Virus record (IMG/VR): IMGVR_UViG_2541047932_000016
Strand: one strand, 5' to 3'
From: a virus
Taxonomy: Duplodnaviria > Heunggongvirae > Uroviricota > Caudoviricetes
Length of the DNA: 38,453 bases
The translations under genes and the position numbers were made by a program. Shown here one piece after another: positions 20,491-23,619 of this stretch. Each line of letters begins with the position of its first letter. Position 1 is the first letter of the stretch. The notes under the pieces are model-generated. The model saw only the letters and a program-made list of their open reading frames with translations, ran no database searches and was not told the origin of the DNA.

Positions 20491-20697
20491 ATGGAAAAAA
20501 TCACAACAGGTGTGTCATACACCACGTCAGCGGTGGGGACGGGATACTGGTTACTGCAGCTGCTGGACAAAGTCTCTCCGTCCCAGTGGGTGGCAATAGG
20601 TGTGCTGGGAAGTCTGCTGTTTGGCCTGCTGACGTATCTGACTAACCTGTATTTCAAAATCAGGGAGGACCGCCGTAAGACGGCGCGGGGAGACTAA
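20491..20697 (+). CDS. S: Holin (class II, phage 21 S-like pinholin family)
   Basis: 68 aa; two TM segments ([38 protein letters not shown]) and charged C-terminus [13 protein letters not shown], closely resembling S21. Confidence 0.8.
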
Positions 20698-20701
20698 AGC
20701 G

Positions 20702-21691
20702 ATGAAGAAAAAATACGAACAGGTTGTTAAAGAGATAAATAATTACCCGGATAAGATTGCTGTTACTGTGGCACTTGAAATTGGCGGGCATCCGTCGTTG
20801 TTGTTGCCACATGTGGCGATTAGTCTTGACCGTACTGAAGGTGCCACGCTGGAGTTCTACGAAGCTGAGGCGAAAAAACAGGCGAAGCAGTTTTTCATGG
20901 ATATTGTTGCCGGGTTATGCGAAGGGGATGAACCGTCACCGGAAAAGCGCCCCGTAATTTTAGATGCGCAGGATGTATTGATAACCTACAAAGGAAAGCT
21001 ACCGGGAAGAATTACTTGTTCTCTGAAGATGCCGCCGTCAACACTGCGGTCAGAAAAAGATGATGTTGAATCGCGTATTGAAAAACTGGAGTGCTATATC
21101 GCTGAATTGAAAAAAAGCACCCCAACAAAAAATGAGGTGCTTGCAGCAGACGAAATGAAAGAAGCTATTCCTGATCGCGCGGCGAATCTAAGCTGCGCTT
21201 CATGGTTGAAAGAGCATCTTCAGCAGCCTGAAAAAAAACGCCGCGATGAGCAGTTTGCTGCGTTTTACGATTATTGCCGGAAAGTGATGAGCAGAAATCT
21301 CGCAGAGTGTTTCAGTATTCATAATGATAATTTCAGTGAGCTGGAATGGGAGTGTAACCGGCCATCCTTTGTTGTATCCGGTGATGCCGGGAAAATAACC
21401 ATCTCAGAAAATGGGAAAGTAACACCTCCATCGCACCAGCACAGTGAGGAGCTCATTGAATTTGCCATTGATTACCTGAAGAACAATAAAAAGCAGGGGC
21501 TGATGAAGCGCGTGGGCCGTTGCATGGGATATCTTCAGGTAGCCGCTGAGATTGAAGCGCTGGCCAGTGGTGCTGATAAGGATGCAATTGTGCGGGAGGC
21601 TCTTCTTCGTGATTTTAATACTCCCCCTTTTAAAAAAGTGCCGGCTTACTGGCTTCATCCGGGGCTGACTTATCTTAAAGTGCGTATTTAG
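20702..21691 (+). CDS. Hypothetical protein (329 aa) inserted between holin and endolysin
   Basis: ATG 4 nt after holin stop with GGGGAG RBS; soluble, no family recognised. Confidence 0.7.
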   Translation: MKKKYEQVVKEINNYPDKIAVTVALEIGGHPSLLLPHVAISLDRTEGATLEFYEAEAKKQAKQFFMDIVAGLCEGDEPSPEKRPVILDAQDVLITYKGKLPGRITCSLKMPPSTLRSEKDDVESRIEKLECYIAELKKSTPTKNEVLAADEMKEAIPDRAANLSCASWLKEHLQQPEKKRRDEQFAAFYDYCRKVMSRNLAECFSIHNDNFSELEWECNRPSFVVSGDAGKITISENGKVTPPSHQHSEELIEFAIDYLKNNKKQGLMKRVGRCMGYLQVAAEIEALASGADKDAIVREALLRDFNTPPFKKVPAYWLHPGLTYLKVRI

Positions 21692-21727: not shown

Positions 21728-22261
21728 ATGAACACCAAAATCAAATACGGCCTGTCGGCTGCCGTTCTGGCGCTGATTGCAGCTGGTGCGCCTGCGCCTG
21801 ACATTCTCGACCAGTTTCTGGATGAAAAGGAAGGTAACCACACCACGGCATACCGTGATGGCGCGGGTATCTGGACCATCTGTCGCGGTGCCATTCTGGT
21901 GGATGGTAAACCTGTCGTCCCGGGCATGAAGTTGTCGAAGGAGAAATGCGACCAGGTTAACGCCATCGAACGTGATAAGGCGCTGGCATGGGTGGAGAAA
22001 AACATCAAAGTGCCATTGACCGAACCCCAGAAAGCGGGGATCGCGTCATTCTGTCCGTACAACATTGGTCCCGGTAAGTGTTTCCCGTCGACGTTTTACA
22101 GACGAATTAATGCTGGTGATCGCAGGGGAGCATGTGAGGCGATTCGCTGGTGGATTAAGGACGGTGGCAGAGACTGCCGTATTCGCTCAAATAACTGTTA
22201 CGGTCAGGTATCCCGTCGTGACCAGGAGAGCGCGCTGGCGTGCTGGGGAATCGACAGATAA
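21728..22261 (+). CDS. R: SAR endolysin (lysozyme, phage 21 R-like)
   Basis: 177 aa; N-terminal Gly/Ala-rich signal-anchor-release segment YGLSAAVLALIAAGAPA, then lysozyme body (...EGNHTTAYRDGAGIWTICRG...). Confidence 0.85.
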   Translation: MNTKIKYGLSAAVLALIAAGAPAPDILDQFLDEKEGNHTTAYRDGAGIWTICRGAILVDGKPVVPGMKLSKEKCDQVNAIERDKALAWVEKNIKVPLTEPQKAGIASFCPYNIGPGKCFPSTFYRRINAGDRRGACEAIRWWIKDGGRDCRIRSNNCYGQVSRRDQESALACWGIDR

Positions 22262-22354
22262 GCAGAATATTTTGCTAATAAATGACGTTGGCCAAGGCGG
22301 ACGGATAACACGAAATCCTGCGAACTGGCGAAACGTAAGTGAATAAAAGTAAAA

Positions 22355-22391
22355 ACCCCGTTTGTTGGCAGCAAGCGGGGTTTTGTTTTTA
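22355..22391 (+). terminator. Rho-independent terminator after the endolysin gene
   Basis: ACCCCGTTTG...CAAGCGGGGT stem followed by TTTTGTTTTT. Confidence 0.6.
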
Positions 22392-22455
22392 TGGCAGTAA
22401 GCTATGGGAGGCTGCCTTGATTGATTTTAGCAAACTGATTAGGGAGTTGCGACTC

Positions 22456-22551
22456 ATGATTAGTCAATTACCAAACTGGAAATTTTTGCTGGTCTGGAGC
22501 ATCCCTTTTTTATGGGTAGTATCCCAGTTAATTGTGGCAATTAAGGGGTAG
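22456..22551 (+). CDS. Small hydrophobic peptide (31 aa)
   Basis: ATG 22456 with AGGGAG RBS; MISQLPNWKFLLVWSIPFLWVVSQLIVAIKG. Confidence 0.35.
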   Translation: MISQLPNWKFLLVWSIPFLWVVSQLIVAIKG

Positions 22552-22553
22552 CT

Positions 22554-22685
22554 ATGTCAGACAAACTCATAACGCCGGCAAAGGTCCTGTGTGTGATTGT
22601 CGGTATTTCATTTTCACTAATGCTGGTTGCTCTTTTTCTGTCCCTCGCCTGGGTGATGTTGTCTTCGTCGGGGCTGCTGGGGTGA
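22554..22685 (+). CDS. Small hydrophobic peptide (43 aa)
   Basis: ATG 22554 with AAGGGG RBS; MSDKLITPAKVLCVIVGISFSLMLVALFLSLAWVMLSSSGLLG. Confidence 0.4.
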   Translation: MSDKLITPAKVLCVIVGISFSLMLVALFLSLAWVMLSSSGLLG

Positions 22686-22804
22686 CAGTGACTGATGACA
22701 TCAGCAGAGCGCTGGCTTTTGCTATTAAGTGGGTGGCTGTTGGTATTGCTGTGTCTCCGATGCTGTATGGGCTGGCAAAACTGGTCATTGCGCTGAAATC
22801 GTGA
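22682..22804 (+). CDS. Small hydrophobic peptide (40 aa), paralogue of the next ORF
   Basis: GTG overlapping the previous stop (GTGA); VTVTDDISRALAFAIKWVAVGIAVSPMLYGLAKLVIALKS; ~11/19 identity with the following peptide over the core. Confidence 0.4.
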   Translation: MTVTDDISRALAFAIKWVAVGIAVSPMLYGLAKLVIALKS

Positions 22805-22815
22805 ACTTTAAAAAG

Positions 22816-22902
22816 ATGAGTGCTGAACTTATTCGGGCAATGGCATTTGCTATTCGTATTGTGGCCATTGCTGTTCTGGTCTGGGCAATCCGTTGGTGGT
22901 GA
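22816..22902 (+). CDS. Small hydrophobic peptide (28 aa), paralogue of the previous ORF
   Basis: [28 protein letters not shown]; stop 1 nt before the Rz ATG. Confidence 0.4.
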
Positions 22903-22903
22903 T

Positions 22904-23398
22904 ATGAACCGTGTTCTGTGTGTGGTGATTATTGTCCTGCTGGTAGCCTGTGGTGTGCTTAGTCTGGGGCTGAATCATTACCGTGATAACGCCATAACCT
23001 ACAAAGAGCAGCGCGATAAAAAAGTCAGTGAGCTGGAGCAGGCAAATGCAACCATTACTGATATGCAGCAGCGCCAGCGTGATGTTGCTGCACTTGATGC
23101 CAGATACACGAAGGAATTAGCCGATGCGAGAGCTGAAAATGAAACTCTGCGCGCTGATGTTGCCGCTGGTCGTAAGCGCCTGCGGATCAACGCCACCTGC
23201 TCCGGTACCGTGCGTGAAGCCACCGGCACCTCCAGCGTGGATAATGCAACCGGCCCCCGACTGGCAGACACCGCTGAACGGGATTATTTCATCCTCAGAG
23301 AACGGTTGATGACAATGCAGAAGCAGCTGGAAGGGGCGCAGGAATATATCCGCACTCAGTGCACTAAGCTGGCTTTTTATTATCCGGAGGATACATGA
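22904..23398 (+). CDS. Rz: Rz i-spanin
   Basis: 164 aa from ATG 22904; N-terminal TM anchor ([20 protein letters not shown]), coiled-coil periplasmic domain, embedded Rz1. Confidence 0.8.
23139..23309 (+). CDS. Rz1: Rz1 o-spanin (outer-membrane lipoprotein) embedded in Rz in the +1 frame
   Basis: [15 protein letters not shown] lipobox signal, then Pro-rich mature peptide ([30 protein letters not shown]...). Confidence 0.7.
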
Positions 23399-23619
23399 AG
23401 AAATTACGGGTAACCGTAGAACCTTTTCAGGGAACAATTCCGTTCCGTATTTTGCAGCGTGGTCGTGTTCTTGTTGAAGGTTCGTTCAGTGGTAAATGTA
23501 CGCAATTACACTCCCGGACCTTTCAGGTGAATGCCACGAATGAAGAGCTAACCGTGGAGTGTACGATGAATGCCGCTAAATGCCGCATGGTATCCGCTGC
23601 ATTACAGCCAGTGTGTTGA
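23395..23619 (+). CDS. Hypothetical protein (74 aa) coupled to the Rz stop
   Basis: ATG overlaps Rz TGA (ATGA); Cys-containing soluble product; unrecognised. Confidence 0.4.

What the first reader, a model, noticed from the sequence alone, without database searches (positions are those of the whole stretch)
22456..22902. Chain of four small hydrophobic peptide ORFs between endolysin and Rz, two clearly paralogous
After the endolysin terminator, four consecutive ORFs (31, 43, 40 and 28 aa) each encode a single TM-like helix. Three have RBS-like sequences or overlapping start/stop coupling, and the last ends 1 nt before the Rz start. Peptides 3 and 4 share a conserved core (ISRALAFAIKWVAVGIAV vs [18 protein letters not shown]), which argues they are under protein-level selection. 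This slot holds an antirepressor-like gene in some lambdoid phages; small membrane peptides here could be antiholin-like lysis modulators or membrane-acting toxins. None is in the ORF track because all are under 60 aa.
Basis: seen in the sequence. Interest (0 to 1): 0.55.

Follow-up and report, generated by a model that had tools for sequence, protein, structure and literature searches.

The report
Four small membrane-protein genes before Rz
Between the endolysin gene and the Rz spanin gene of this E. coli prophage sit four real, conserved genes for tiny single-helix membrane proteins; their function is untested, they are common in E. coli prophages including Shiga-toxin phages, and they probably act in the inner membrane around the time of lysis.

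Summary
After a strong terminator hairpin (22352-22392), four tightly packed + strand ORFs run up to 1 nt before the Rz start, and each has one hydrophobic helix. Chance does not explain this (0 of 2000 shuffles). All four frames are under purifying selection: synonymous changes are in excess only in the called frame (P from 0.007 to 1e-9).

They fall into three families. F1 is ORF1, more likely 44 aa from TTG 22417, and is unannotated in RefSeq. F2 is ORF2. F3/F4 are ORF3 and ORF4, which are true paralogs. RefSeq and PHROGs already list ORF2-4 as proteins of unknown function.

The endolysin-spanin slot is a recombination mosaic holding different combinations of these cassettes. The window's stack is an [F1][F2] pair fused to a 5'-truncated [F3][F4]. 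No promoter is predicted, so expression should depend on Q-antiterminated late transcription plus stop-start coupling.

F2, F3 and F4 were seen only downstream of endolysins, next to four or five unrelated endolysin types and three holin types. F1 relatives also occur in tail and baseplate modules. A lysis-timing role is the most likely reading (about 45%) but is unproven, and a specific antiholin role is not supported. These are real genes, already catalogued but uncharacterised, and of moderate interest.

The parts
20491..20697 (+). Class II (phage 21 S-type) pinholin gene; context only
   Evidence: Pfam PF04971, E = 1.4e-32. PGAP calls it a 'class II holin family protein'.
21728..22261 (+). 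Endolysin (R21-like lysozyme with a hydrophobic N-terminus); upstream border of the slot
   Evidence: Pfam PF00959, E = 1.4e-24. N-terminal sequence MNTKIKYGLSAAVLALIAAGAPAP.
22262..22393 (+). Conserved post-endolysin segment ending in an intrinsic-terminator hairpin (stem-loop 22352-22384, T-run to about 22392)
   Evidence: Terminator scan. Folding energy -24.2 kcal/mol, z = -5.6. The first 129 nt of the slot query, which is this segment, is the part matched in the weakest-matching E. coli genomes. An equivalent hairpin precedes the small ORF in 8 contexts, with 6 of 14 pairs showing compensatory change.
22417..22551 (+). ORF1 = family F1, long form: 44 aa from TTG 22417 (MIDFSKLIRELRLMISQLPNWKFLLVWSIPFLWVVSQLIVAIKG).
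   Evidence: GGGAGG at 22406-22411 lies 5 nt before the TTG. Homologues of 44-45 aa begin at the same MIDFSK in Salmonella, Citrobacter, Enterobacter and Klebsiella. Synonymous excess P = 0.002 (N-terminus) and 3e-6 (F1b/c full length). Weak hit to phrog_6632, 6e-5. Unannotated in RefSeq.
22554..22685 (+). ORF2 = family F2, 43 aa single-TM peptide
   Evidence: phrog_4906, E = 4.5e-21. RefSeq WP_001280935.1. 221 protein clusters in the database search. 19 DNA alleles with no stop codons; pN/pS 0.51 against 0.80 and 1.19 in the other frames; synonymous excess P = 0.007.
22682..22804 (+). ORF3 = 5'-truncated member of family F3 (40 aa from GTG 22682). Alternative starts: GTG 22688, or PGAP's 22649.
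   Evidence: phrog_1115, 3246 and 4493, E = 6e-25 to 5e-17. From 22686 onward the sequence is 98% identical to an [F3 60 aa][F4][Rz] cassette, with the junction exactly at the ORF2 stop. pN/pS 0.14 against 1.2 and 2.2; synonymous excess P = 1e-9.
22816..22902 (+). ORF4 = short form of family F4, paralog of F3 (28 aa from ATG 22816, or 33 aa from GTG 22801)
   Evidence: phrog_4493, 3246 and 1115. RefSeq WP_032140280.1. The long 50-aa form shares its N-terminus with long F3. pN/pS 0.34 against 0.76 and 1.30; synonymous excess P = 9e-4.
22904..23398 (+). Rz i-spanin gene, with Rz1 embedded at 23124-23309; downstream border of the slot
   Evidence: Pfam PF03245, E = 3.4e-51. The embedded 61-aa ORF contains the sequence LVVSAC, read here as a lipoprotein signal (lipobox).

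Best explanation
The four ORFs are real genes for bitopic (single-pass, probably N-in/C-out) inner-membrane microproteins of three families: F1, F2 and the paralogous F3/F4. They are promoter-less accessory cassettes of the phage late operon that collect in the endolysin-spanin junction of enterobacterial lambdoid prophages.

The window's stack arose by recombination. An [F1][F2] pair was joined, exactly at the F2 stop codon, to an [F3][F4][Rz] cassette that lost the first 22 codons of F3.

Inferred expression: RNA polymerase modified by Q at pR' reads through the strong terminator after the endolysin gene. ORF1 and ORF2 use their own Shine-Dalgarno sites. ORF3, ORF4 and Rz are translated by stop-start coupling (GTGA overlap, then gaps of 11 nt and 1 nt).

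Inferred action: the peptides insert into the inner membrane late in infection and tune the membrane step of lysis. That could mean the timing of holin triggering or SAR-endolysin release, or membrane energisation. They would be accessory, not essential, lysis components.

Shown: coding status, family membership, paralogy, mosaic origin, genomic association, and the absence of a predicted promoter.
Inferred: transcription mode, coupling, topology, and the lysis-modulating role.
For: Real genes:
- Synonymous changes are in excess only in the called frame for every family, and codon position 2 varies least. pN/pS is lowest in that frame.
- The chain of TM-like ORFs is not reached in 2000 shuffles.
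- The genes are widespread among 5426 complete E. coli genomes: F1 in 703, F2 in 1532, F3 in 1536, F4 in 1143, and the whole stack in 587.
- Cross-genus homologues keep length and motif.

Late-operon cassettes:
- No + strand sigma-70-like promoter lies between the terminator and the ORFs, here or in three other contexts.
- Spacing is tight, with overlapping stops and starts.

Mosaic origin: breakpoints were mapped by blastn, and 57 distinct slot sequences with many different architectures were seen among 78 loci.

Lysis association: F2, F3 and F4 homologues were found only directly after endolysin genes, although the neighbours are non-homologous.
- R21-type lysozyme with S21 holin (window).
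- Phage_lysozyme with HP1-type holin and Rz in Salmonella.
- GH108 endolysin with holin_8 plus holin_3_7 in Cronobacter, Citrobacter and E. coli.
- Peptidase M15 endolysin.
- F1 also follows a GH19 endolysin and precedes an overlapped spanin pair in Enterobacter. It precedes Rz in Salmonella phage SPN3UB and in H-19B.

Precedents for small accessory membrane proteins near endolysin genes: the Mu releasin gp25 (PMC9239132) and BSPM4 ORF52 (PMC11657625).
Against: - No experimental data on these peptides were found.
- F1 relatives lie between baseplate or tail genes in SEN34, Rac-SA53 (89% identical to the F1b form), Klebsiella grimontii, Citrobacter and a Pseudomonas phage. So at least F1 is not tied to lysis.
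- The slot is empty in some relatives and in K-12 Qin, so the genes are dispensable.
- There are no Pfam, NCBIfam or PADLOC matches.
- F2 is only mildly constrained (pN/pS 0.51).
- ORF3 lacks its family's N-terminal 22 residues and its own ribosome-binding site.
- The selection statistics are pairwise or column counts on recombining alleles from few lineages. They are not tree-corrected.
- Association with the post-endolysin position could reflect recombination at the shared terminator-leader junction rather than function.
Confidence: 0.45

Rival explanations
1. Late-operon cargo unrelated to lysis. The peptides would be moron-like membrane proteins that act on a host envelope component. Examples are blocking DNA entry or receptors of competing or progeny phages (superinfection exclusion, 'anti-Kronos'). 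They would merely lodge at permissive junctions such as R/Rz, baseplate V/W or tail I/J.
For: - They are extra genes between genes that abut in relatives.
- Nearly identical F1 genes occur in tail and baseplate modules.
- They are independent of holin, endolysin and spanin type.
- Exclusion genes are known at late-operon junctions, including one pair between endolysin and tail spike genes in phage JBD44 (bioRxiv 10.1101/2024.03.05.583538).
Against: - No promoter is predicted, and a terminator lies upstream rather than downstream. Expression from a repressed prophage is therefore unlikely.
- There are no PADLOC hits.
- F2, F3 and F4 were never seen outside the post-endolysin slot.
Confidence: 0.28
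2. Generic membrane-depolarising toxic peptides (type-I-toxin-like). They would be kept silent by the upstream terminator. When made late, they would collapse the proton-motive force, and so trigger any holin or release any SAR endolysin.
For: - Size and hydrophobicity resemble small membrane toxins.
- A strong, structurally conserved terminator always sits about 30 nt upstream.
- Independence from holin type is what a generic depolariser would show.
Against: - There is no antisense RNA or own promoter.
- Up to seven copies per genome are tolerated.
- No toxicity data exist.
- This overlaps the main explanation and is a sub-case of it.
Confidence: 0.12
3. Recombination scars or translational couplers. 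The ORFs, especially the truncated ORF3 and ORF4, would persist because ribosomes must traverse them to reach Rz. The peptide sequences themselves would not matter.
For: - ORF3 is a 5'-truncated copy joined at the ORF2 stop.
- The shared C-terminal IRWW codons overlap the Rz initiation region.
- F2 pN/pS is only 0.51.
Against: - A frame-specific synonymous excess is seen in all four families.
- The short ATG-initiated form of F4 is conserved in diverged alleles.
- Homologues are retained in other genera and next to different downstream genes.
Confidence: 0.1

Closest known systems
PHROG families phrog_4906 (ORF2), phrog_1115/3246/4493 (ORF3, ORF4) and phrog_6632 (ORF1); RefSeq hypothetical proteins WP_001280935.1, WP_042004856.1, WP_032140280.1
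   Same: Direct HMM or identity matches. These are the same proteins, already catalogued.
   Different: All are labelled 'unknown function'. ORF1 matches only weakly and is not annotated in RefSeq E. coli genomes. Some catalogue entries use over-long starts, for example a 90-aa profile that matches the 90-aa TTG ORF overlapping ORF2.
Dual-start holin/antiholin pairs (lambda S105/S107; phage 21 S68/S71); comparison from my own knowledge of the lysis literature
   Same: They are small membrane proteins encoded in the lysis cassette. F1, long F3 and long F4 each have a first start plus a conserved internal Met 12-13 codons later, preceded by GGAG or GAGG. Two nested products are therefore possible.
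   Different: They have one TMD, not two or three. There is no Pfam holin hit. A bona fide S21 holin is already present. The families are not tied to one holin type. The two starts are unproven.
Phage Mu releasin gp25 (DUF2730), PMC9239132
   Same: It is a single-TMD accessory lysis protein encoded a few genes downstream of the endolysin. It is found with several endolysin classes and is not itself a holin.
   Different: gp25 is 99 aa, N-out/C-in, with a 73-aa cytoplasmic domain. The peptides here are 28-60 aa, probably N-in, with almost no soluble domain. There is no DUF2730 match.
Morons and superinfection-exclusion membrane proteins of temperate phages (for example HK97 gp15, from my own knowledge; Pseudomonas Zip and JBD44 genes)
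   Same: They are extra genes inserted between genes that are adjacent in relatives. They encode membrane proteins, and F1 copies sit in tail modules.
   Different: Classical morons carry their own promoter and a downstream terminator. Here no promoter is predicted and the terminator is upstream.
Type I toxin peptides (Hok, TisB, Ldr and similar; from my own knowledge)
   Same: They are hydrophobic single-helix peptides of 30-50 aa.
   Different: There is no antisense RNA, no own promoter and no Rfam hit. The genes are embedded in a phage late operon.

Membership tests
PHROG small-protein families (4906; 1115/3246/4493; 6632) | Significant match to the family HMM | tested here: met
   ORF2 4.5e-21; ORF3 6.4e-25; ORF4 4.4e-07; ORF1 6e-05, which is weak.
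Holin | Small membrane protein with at least one TMD, encoded next to the endolysin | tested here: met
   One hydrophobic helix each. All lie within 650 nt downstream of the endolysin.
Holin | Match to a described holin family | tested here: not met
   No Pfam holin family at E <= 1 to 10.
Holin | Lethal, timed hole formation when expressed | not testable with these tools
   Needs induction experiments.
Antiholin of the S21 pinholin | Sequence relation to, or specific pairing with, the cognate holin | tested here: not met
   F3 against S21 TMD2: BLASTP 7/16 identities, E = 0.001. Shuffle P = 0.0045 before correction for 24 tests. hhalign probability is only 5%. The families also occur with HP1-type and holin_8/holin_3_7 holins.
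Antiholin / dual-start motif | Two in-frame starts giving nested products | tested here: inconclusive
   A conserved internal Met is preceded by GGAG or GAGG in F1, long F3 and long F4. Some alleles encode only the short form. No translation data are available.
Moron (Hendrix sense) | Extra gene between two genes that are adjacent in related phages | tested here: met
   R abuts Rz in K-12 Qin and in L081, L083 and L085.
Moron (Hendrix sense) | Own promoter and downstream terminator | tested here: not met
   No + strand promoter was found. The terminator is upstream, and the next gene follows within 1-20 nt.
i-spanin | N-terminal TMD plus a periplasmic domain long enough to reach the o-spanin | tested here: not met
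   Only 1-8 residues follow the TM helix. Rz/Rz1 are present separately.
Mu releasin (DUF2730) | DUF2730 domain; N-out TMD plus an acidic cytoplasmic domain of about 70 aa | tested here: not met
   No Pfam hit. The peptides are 28-60 aa. gp25 features are taken.
Known anti-phage defence proteins | Match to a PADLOC model | tested here: not met
   No hits for seven slot peptides.
Type I toxin-antitoxin | Antisense or overlapping regulatory RNA and own promoter | tested here: inconclusive
   No Rfam family. The only promoter-like site is a weak one (9 of 12 matches) on the - strand at 22560-22531. No transcript data are available.

The most novel reading that the evidence does not exclude
F1, F3 and F4 (and perhaps F2) could be an unrecognised class of lysis regulators that do not depend on holin type. 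They would be bitopic microproteins of about 45 aa, guarded by an upstream terminator, and made in long and short forms from dual starts. They would set lysis time, and hence phage and Shiga-toxin release, by acting on membrane energisation or on the transmembrane segments of the pinholin, the SAR endolysin or the i-spanin. If so, they have been overlooked in the paradigm phage-21/H-19B/933W-type lysis cassette.
Probability: 0.15. Interest if true: 0.75.

Novelty: new member of a known kind. Interest (0 to 1): 0.45.

Why it matters
The phage-21-type cassette (pinholin, SAR endolysin, Rz/Rz1) is a textbook lysis system. It is also the release route for Shiga toxin.

At least one of these small genes lies inside that cassette in roughly a quarter of complete E. 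coli genomes, and in phages such as H-19B, P27 and Sakai Sp5. None has a known function. One family (F1) is not annotated in RefSeq E. coli genomes and in most phage records.

If they tune lysis timing, they affect burst size and toxin release. If they do not, they are a compact, highly mobile set of late-expressed membrane microproteins whose targets are worth finding. Either way the question can be tested directly with knockouts in inducible lysogens.

Tried and rejected
- Pfam, NCBIfam and PADLOC scans of all peptides gave no meaningful hits.
- Rfam on 22200-22950 gave only a sub-threshold chance hit.
- The genome-contig scan with the F3/F4 alignment matched 36 patterns but none was confirmed. 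One genome per species is a poor sample for a prophage gene.
- The viral-contig scan with the F2 alignment returned only 100%-identical copies, which was of little use for divergence.
- Seven literature searches, covering lysis-cassette, small-protein and Ribo-seq terms plus RefSeq and Sakai accessions, found nothing on these peptides. The Stx-phage genomics paper PMC8136144 does not mention them in the passages searched.
- Idea rejected: the F3 helix mimics the pinholin TMD2. It was prompted by the chimera P0062 and a BLASTP hit (E = 0.001). It did not survive multiple-test correction or hhalign (probability 5%).
- Idea rejected: F1 and F3/F4 are homologous. hhalign probability was 10%, although they share an N-terminal architecture.
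- Idea rejected: an own promoter lies in the conserved leader. None was found in four contexts.
- The HMM search of 1.84 billion representatives with the F1 profile found 38 clusters at E <= 0.001 and no relative carrying a recognisable larger domain.
- No K-12 homologue exists in the Qin lysis region, where rrrQ overlaps rzpQ.
Full report
**Where the window comes from.** The slot 22262-22903 is 100% identical to a prophage of E. coli O39:NM strain F8704-2 and 98.4% identical to one in EPEC E2348/69. The surrounding genes form a phage-21-type lysis cassette:
- class II S21-like holin, 20491-20697;
- a 329-aa protein with a DUF1327/YdfR N-terminal domain, 20702-21691;
- a lysozyme with a hydrophobic N-terminus, 21728-22261;
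- Rz, 22904-23398, with Rz1 embedded at 23124-23309.

**Checking the observation.**
- ORF1: ATG 22456 to TAG 22551, 31 aa, with GGGAG 9 nt upstream.
- ORF2: ATG 22554 to TGA 22685, 43 aa, with AAGGGG 5 nt upstream. It starts 2 nt after the ORF1 stop.
- ORF3: GTG 22682 to TGA 22804, 40 aa. Its GTG overlaps the ORF2 stop as GTGA.
- ORF4: ATG 22816 to TGA 22902, 28 aa. A GTG at 22801 overlapping the ORF3 stop would give 33 aa.
- Rz: ATG 22904, 1 nt after the ORF4 stop.

A strong intrinsic-terminator hairpin lies at 22352-22384 with a T-run. Its folding energy is -24.2 kcal/mol, z = -5.6 against shuffles.

Each peptide has a 17-residue window of mean hydropathy 1.9-2.8, and the net charge of the N-terminal flank is zero or positive. 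Four TM-like ORFs in 511 nt were never reached in 2000 dinucleotide shuffles; only 4 shuffles reached three. No other 511-nt stretch of the 38-kb window, on either strand, reaches four.

**Are they genes?** I collected 190 related loci, mainly by searching for Rz relatives with upstream flanks and by exact-protein look-ups. For every family, changes among unique DNA alleles concentrate at codon position 3 of the called frame, and position 2 varies least. Synonymous changes are in significant excess only in that frame:

| Family | Binomial P, called frame | P, other two frames |
|---|---|---|
| F1, N-terminal 27 codons | 0.002 | 0.17-0.97 |
| F1b/c, full length | 3e-6 | 0.29-0.93 |
| F2 | 0.007 | 0.27-0.87 |
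| F3, C-terminal 37 codons | 1e-9 | 0.96-1 |
| F4 core | 9e-4 | 0.32-0.86 |

Pairwise pN/pS:

| Family | Called frame | Shifted frames |
|---|---|---|
| F2 | 0.51 | 0.80 and 1.19 |
| F3 | 0.14 | 1.20 and 2.22 |
| F4 | 0.34 | 0.76 and 1.30 |
| F1b | 0.25 | 0.64 and 1.43 |

These are simple counts on recombining alleles, not tree-based estimates, but the frame specificity is clear. The hydrophobic alternative-frame ORF inside ORF3 (22695-22796) is not the selected frame.

**Families and annotation status.**
- PHROG matches: ORF2 to phrog_4906 (4.5e-21); ORF3 to phrog_1115, 3246 and 4493; ORF4 to the same three; ORF1 weakly to phrog_6632. All are of unknown function. Pfam, NCBIfam and PADLOC give nothing.
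- RefSeq already annotates ORF2, ORF3 (from a doubtful start at 22649) and ORF4 as hypothetical proteins, but not ORF1.
- Megablast-level homologues among 5426 complete E. coli genomes: F1 in 703 (no feature annotated in any of the hits listed), F2 in 1532, F3 in 1536 (up to 7 copies per genome), F4 in 1143. The complete four-ORF stack is in 587.

**ORF3 and ORF4 are paralogs.** Besides the shared PHROG hits, the long forms seen elsewhere share an N-terminus:
- F3, 60 aa: MEKYKRILLRLTMKNGLELKAPVTDDISRALAFAIKWVAVGIAVSPMLYGLAKLVIALKS
- F4, 50 aa: [50 protein letters not shown]

In the window, the shared core differs at synonymous sites (AGA/CGG for Arg; GCG/GCA and GCT/GCC for Ala).

**ORF1 is probably longer than called.** Homologues from Salmonella, Citrobacter, the Enterobacter cloacae complex and Klebsiella grimontii are mostly 42-45 aa. 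They begin at the same MIDFSKLIRELRxM, from a GTG with a strong Shine-Dalgarno site. A Providencia homologue contains the same motif but is called 6 residues longer. In the window the equivalent start is TTG 22417, with GGGAGG 5 nt upstream, giving 44 aa.

It is preceded by GGAG 9 nt upstream, and codon 9 ends in GG in all but one of the 17 alleles. Some alleles encode only the short form. Long F3 and long F4 show the same layout, with an internal Met at codon 13 or 14 preceded by GAGG. Nested long and short products are possible but unproven.

A profile search of 1.84 billion cluster representatives found 38 F1 clusters at E <= 0.001, nearly all 24-86 aa. None carries a recognisable larger domain.

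**The slot is a mosaic.** Among 78 loci that contain both the endolysin and Rz there are 57 distinct slot sequences. The architectures include:
- nothing (R abuts Rz, as in K-12 Qin);
- F1b alone (298 nt; H-19B type, unannotated there);
- long F4 alone;
- [F3 long][F2];
- [F3 long][F4];
- [ant][F2] (Stx phages P27 and Sakai Sp5 gene ECs_5707);
- [ant-like][short F1][F2];
- [new 50 aa][F3][new 49 aa][F4];
- the window's [F1][F2][F3'][F4].

Breakpoints in the window, mapped by blastn:
- 22262-22393 is the common post-endolysin segment.
- 22418-22685 is an [F1][F2] pair. The same pair is found 76% identical in Cronobacter (with a frameshifted F1), and 22475-22685 is 83% identical to L071.
- 22686-22960 is 98% identical to an [F3 long][F4][Rz] cassette.

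The junction lies exactly at the ORF2 stop. ORF3 is therefore an F3 gene that lost its first 22 codons and its own ribosome-binding site. A GTA-to-GTG difference creates a second possible start at 22688.

**Regulatory anatomy.** No + strand sigma-70-like promoter is predicted between the terminator and the ORFs. The same holds upstream of F1 in three other contexts. Instead, a GC-rich hairpin with a T-run lies about 30 nt upstream of the small ORF in eight independent contexts. Six of its 14 pairs show compensatory change. A related leader that ends in a strong Shine-Dalgarno sequence (AGGGAGAAC in several contexts) precedes F1, long F3 and long F4.

I infer that the genes are read only by late, terminator-resistant transcription (Q-modified polymerase in lambdoid phages), and that ORF3, ORF4 and Rz depend on translational coupling. 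Why a terminator is tied to the 5' side of the cassette is unexplained. Insulation of a potentially toxic peptide and protection of a processed 5' end are two possibilities.

**Genomic association and what it says about function.**

F2, F3 and F4 relatives were found only directly downstream of endolysin genes, although the neighbours are non-homologous:
- R21-type lysozyme with S21 holin (window);
- Phage_lysozyme with HP1-type holin and Rz in Salmonella;
- GH108 endolysin with holin_8 plus holin_3_7 in Cronobacter, Citrobacter and E. coli, where stacks such as [65 aa][F3 short 38 aa][F2][60-aa lipoprotein] occur;
- Peptidase_M15 endolysin followed by [F1][F2].

One F3-like chimera lies in what appears to be a Salmonella prophage remnant without lysis genes.

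F1 follows a GH19 endolysin and precedes an overlapped i-/o-spanin pair in Enterobacter. It also precedes Rz in Salmonella phage SPN3UB.

F1 relatives also sit elsewhere:
- between baseplate spike and wedge genes in Salmonella phage SEN34, in E. coli phage Rac-SA53 (89% identical to F1b) and in Klebsiella grimontii;
- just upstream of the gpJ-like tail-tip gene, downstream of a Lambda_tail_I-like gene, in Citrobacter;
- among tail genes in Pseudomonas phage YMC11/02/R656.

So the families are independent of holin, endolysin and spanin type. That argues against a specific antiholin. F1 at least is a mobile late-operon cassette rather than a dedicated lysis gene.

**Most likely mechanism, and how sure.**
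- Real late-expressed inner-membrane microproteins: about 0.85.
- Accessory modulators of the membrane step of lysis, acting on timing through membrane energisation or through contacts with the TM segments of lysis proteins: about 0.45. This rests on the exclusive post-endolysin placement of F2, F3 and F4 across unrelated cassettes, the coupling to Rz, and precedents such as the Mu releasin and BSPM4 ORF52.
- Rivals: lysis-unrelated late cargo such as exclusion proteins (0.28), a generic depolarising-toxin sub-case (0.12), and scars or couplers whose sequence is irrelevant (0.10).

**Leads that failed.**
- The F3 helix resembles the S21 pinholin TMD2 (KWVAVGIAVSPMLYGL against [15 protein letters not shown]; BLASTP E = 0.001). 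A database chimera, P0062, joins the S21 N-terminus to the F3 C-terminus. But the shuffle P of 0.0045 does not survive 24 tests, and hhalign gives 5% probability.
- F1 against F3/F4 gives 10% probability.
- Rfam and seven literature searches found nothing on these peptides.

**Verdict.** The finding is real and its coding interpretation is right. The functional guess is plausible but untested, and in its specific antiholin form it is not supported. The genes are already catalogued as hypothetical proteins (except ORF1), so this is a new, uncharacterised member of a known kind: small accessory membrane proteins of phage late operons. Their position inside the Stx-phage lysis cassette, their high prevalence, the terminator-led cassette structure and the possible dual starts make them a reasonable experimental target. 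Interest 0.45.

Noticed in passing
window 20702-21691 (+): A 329-aa ORF lies between the holin and the endolysin. It has an N-terminal DUF1327/YdfR domain (residues 1-100) and a long extension. PGAP marks only the first 336 nt as a partial pseudogene, yet phrog_1085 matches the full length (E = 1.7e-179). It is probably an intact gene that is under-annotated.
   Followed up: partly
window 23395-23619 (+): A 74-aa ORF has a start that overlaps the Rz stop (ATGA). It matches only positions 100-172 of the 291-position phrog_2571 profile and is annotated as hypothetical. It could be a fragment of a longer gene or a separate coupled gene.
   Followed up: no
L170-L172 (Cronobacter prophages), 1-860: Genes for an LT-II-like enterotoxin A subunit (Enterotoxin_a/Scabin-like) and B subunit (LT-IIB) lie immediately upstream of the holin genes. 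This is the position that stx occupies in Stx phages.
   Followed up: no
L171 2640-2822; L185 2640-2822; L187 2779-2961: In GH108-type cassettes, the F2 homologue is followed within about 5 nt by a lipoprotein of about 60 aa with a lipobox and three Cys. No Rz-like i-spanin is called nearby. How these prophages breach the outer membrane is unclear.
   Followed up: partly
window 22352-22392; L168, L173, L174, L176, L177, L178, L012: A terminator-like hairpin always lies about 30 nt upstream of F1 or long F3, whether the cassette sits in a lysis, baseplate or tail module. Compensatory changes are seen in the stem. Why a promoter-less cassette carries a terminator on its 5' side is unexplained.
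   Followed up: partly
F1 family, codons 3-7 (window 22423-22437): GAT TTT AGC AAA CTG is invariant at the DNA level in 14 of the 17 alleles compared, from E. coli, Salmonella, Cronobacter, Enterobacter, Klebsiella and Citrobacter, with no synonymous change. The two alleles that differ here do so by one nonsynonymous change each. Later codons vary. This suggests an extra nucleotide-level constraint or a recombination junction.
   Followed up: no
protein P0062 (ENA contig, 554 nt): A chimeric ORF joins the S21 holin N-terminus (including TMD1) to the C-terminal half of F3 at the shared WVA-GV motif. It is either a natural recombinant or an assembly artefact.
   Followed up: partly
window 22695-22796 (+), frame +1 within ORF3: A second hydrophobic ORF of 33 aa overlaps ORF3. 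Frameshift alleles in databases (P0056, P0067) switch into it. It is not the selected frame.
   Followed up: yes
L072, L075-L077, slot positions 154-306 and 471-620: Two further small single-TM ORF families (50 and 49 aa) occupy the same slot in another four-ORF stack. The N-terminus of the 49-aa family recombines with the F3 helix in a Salmonella protein, P0050.
   Followed up: partly
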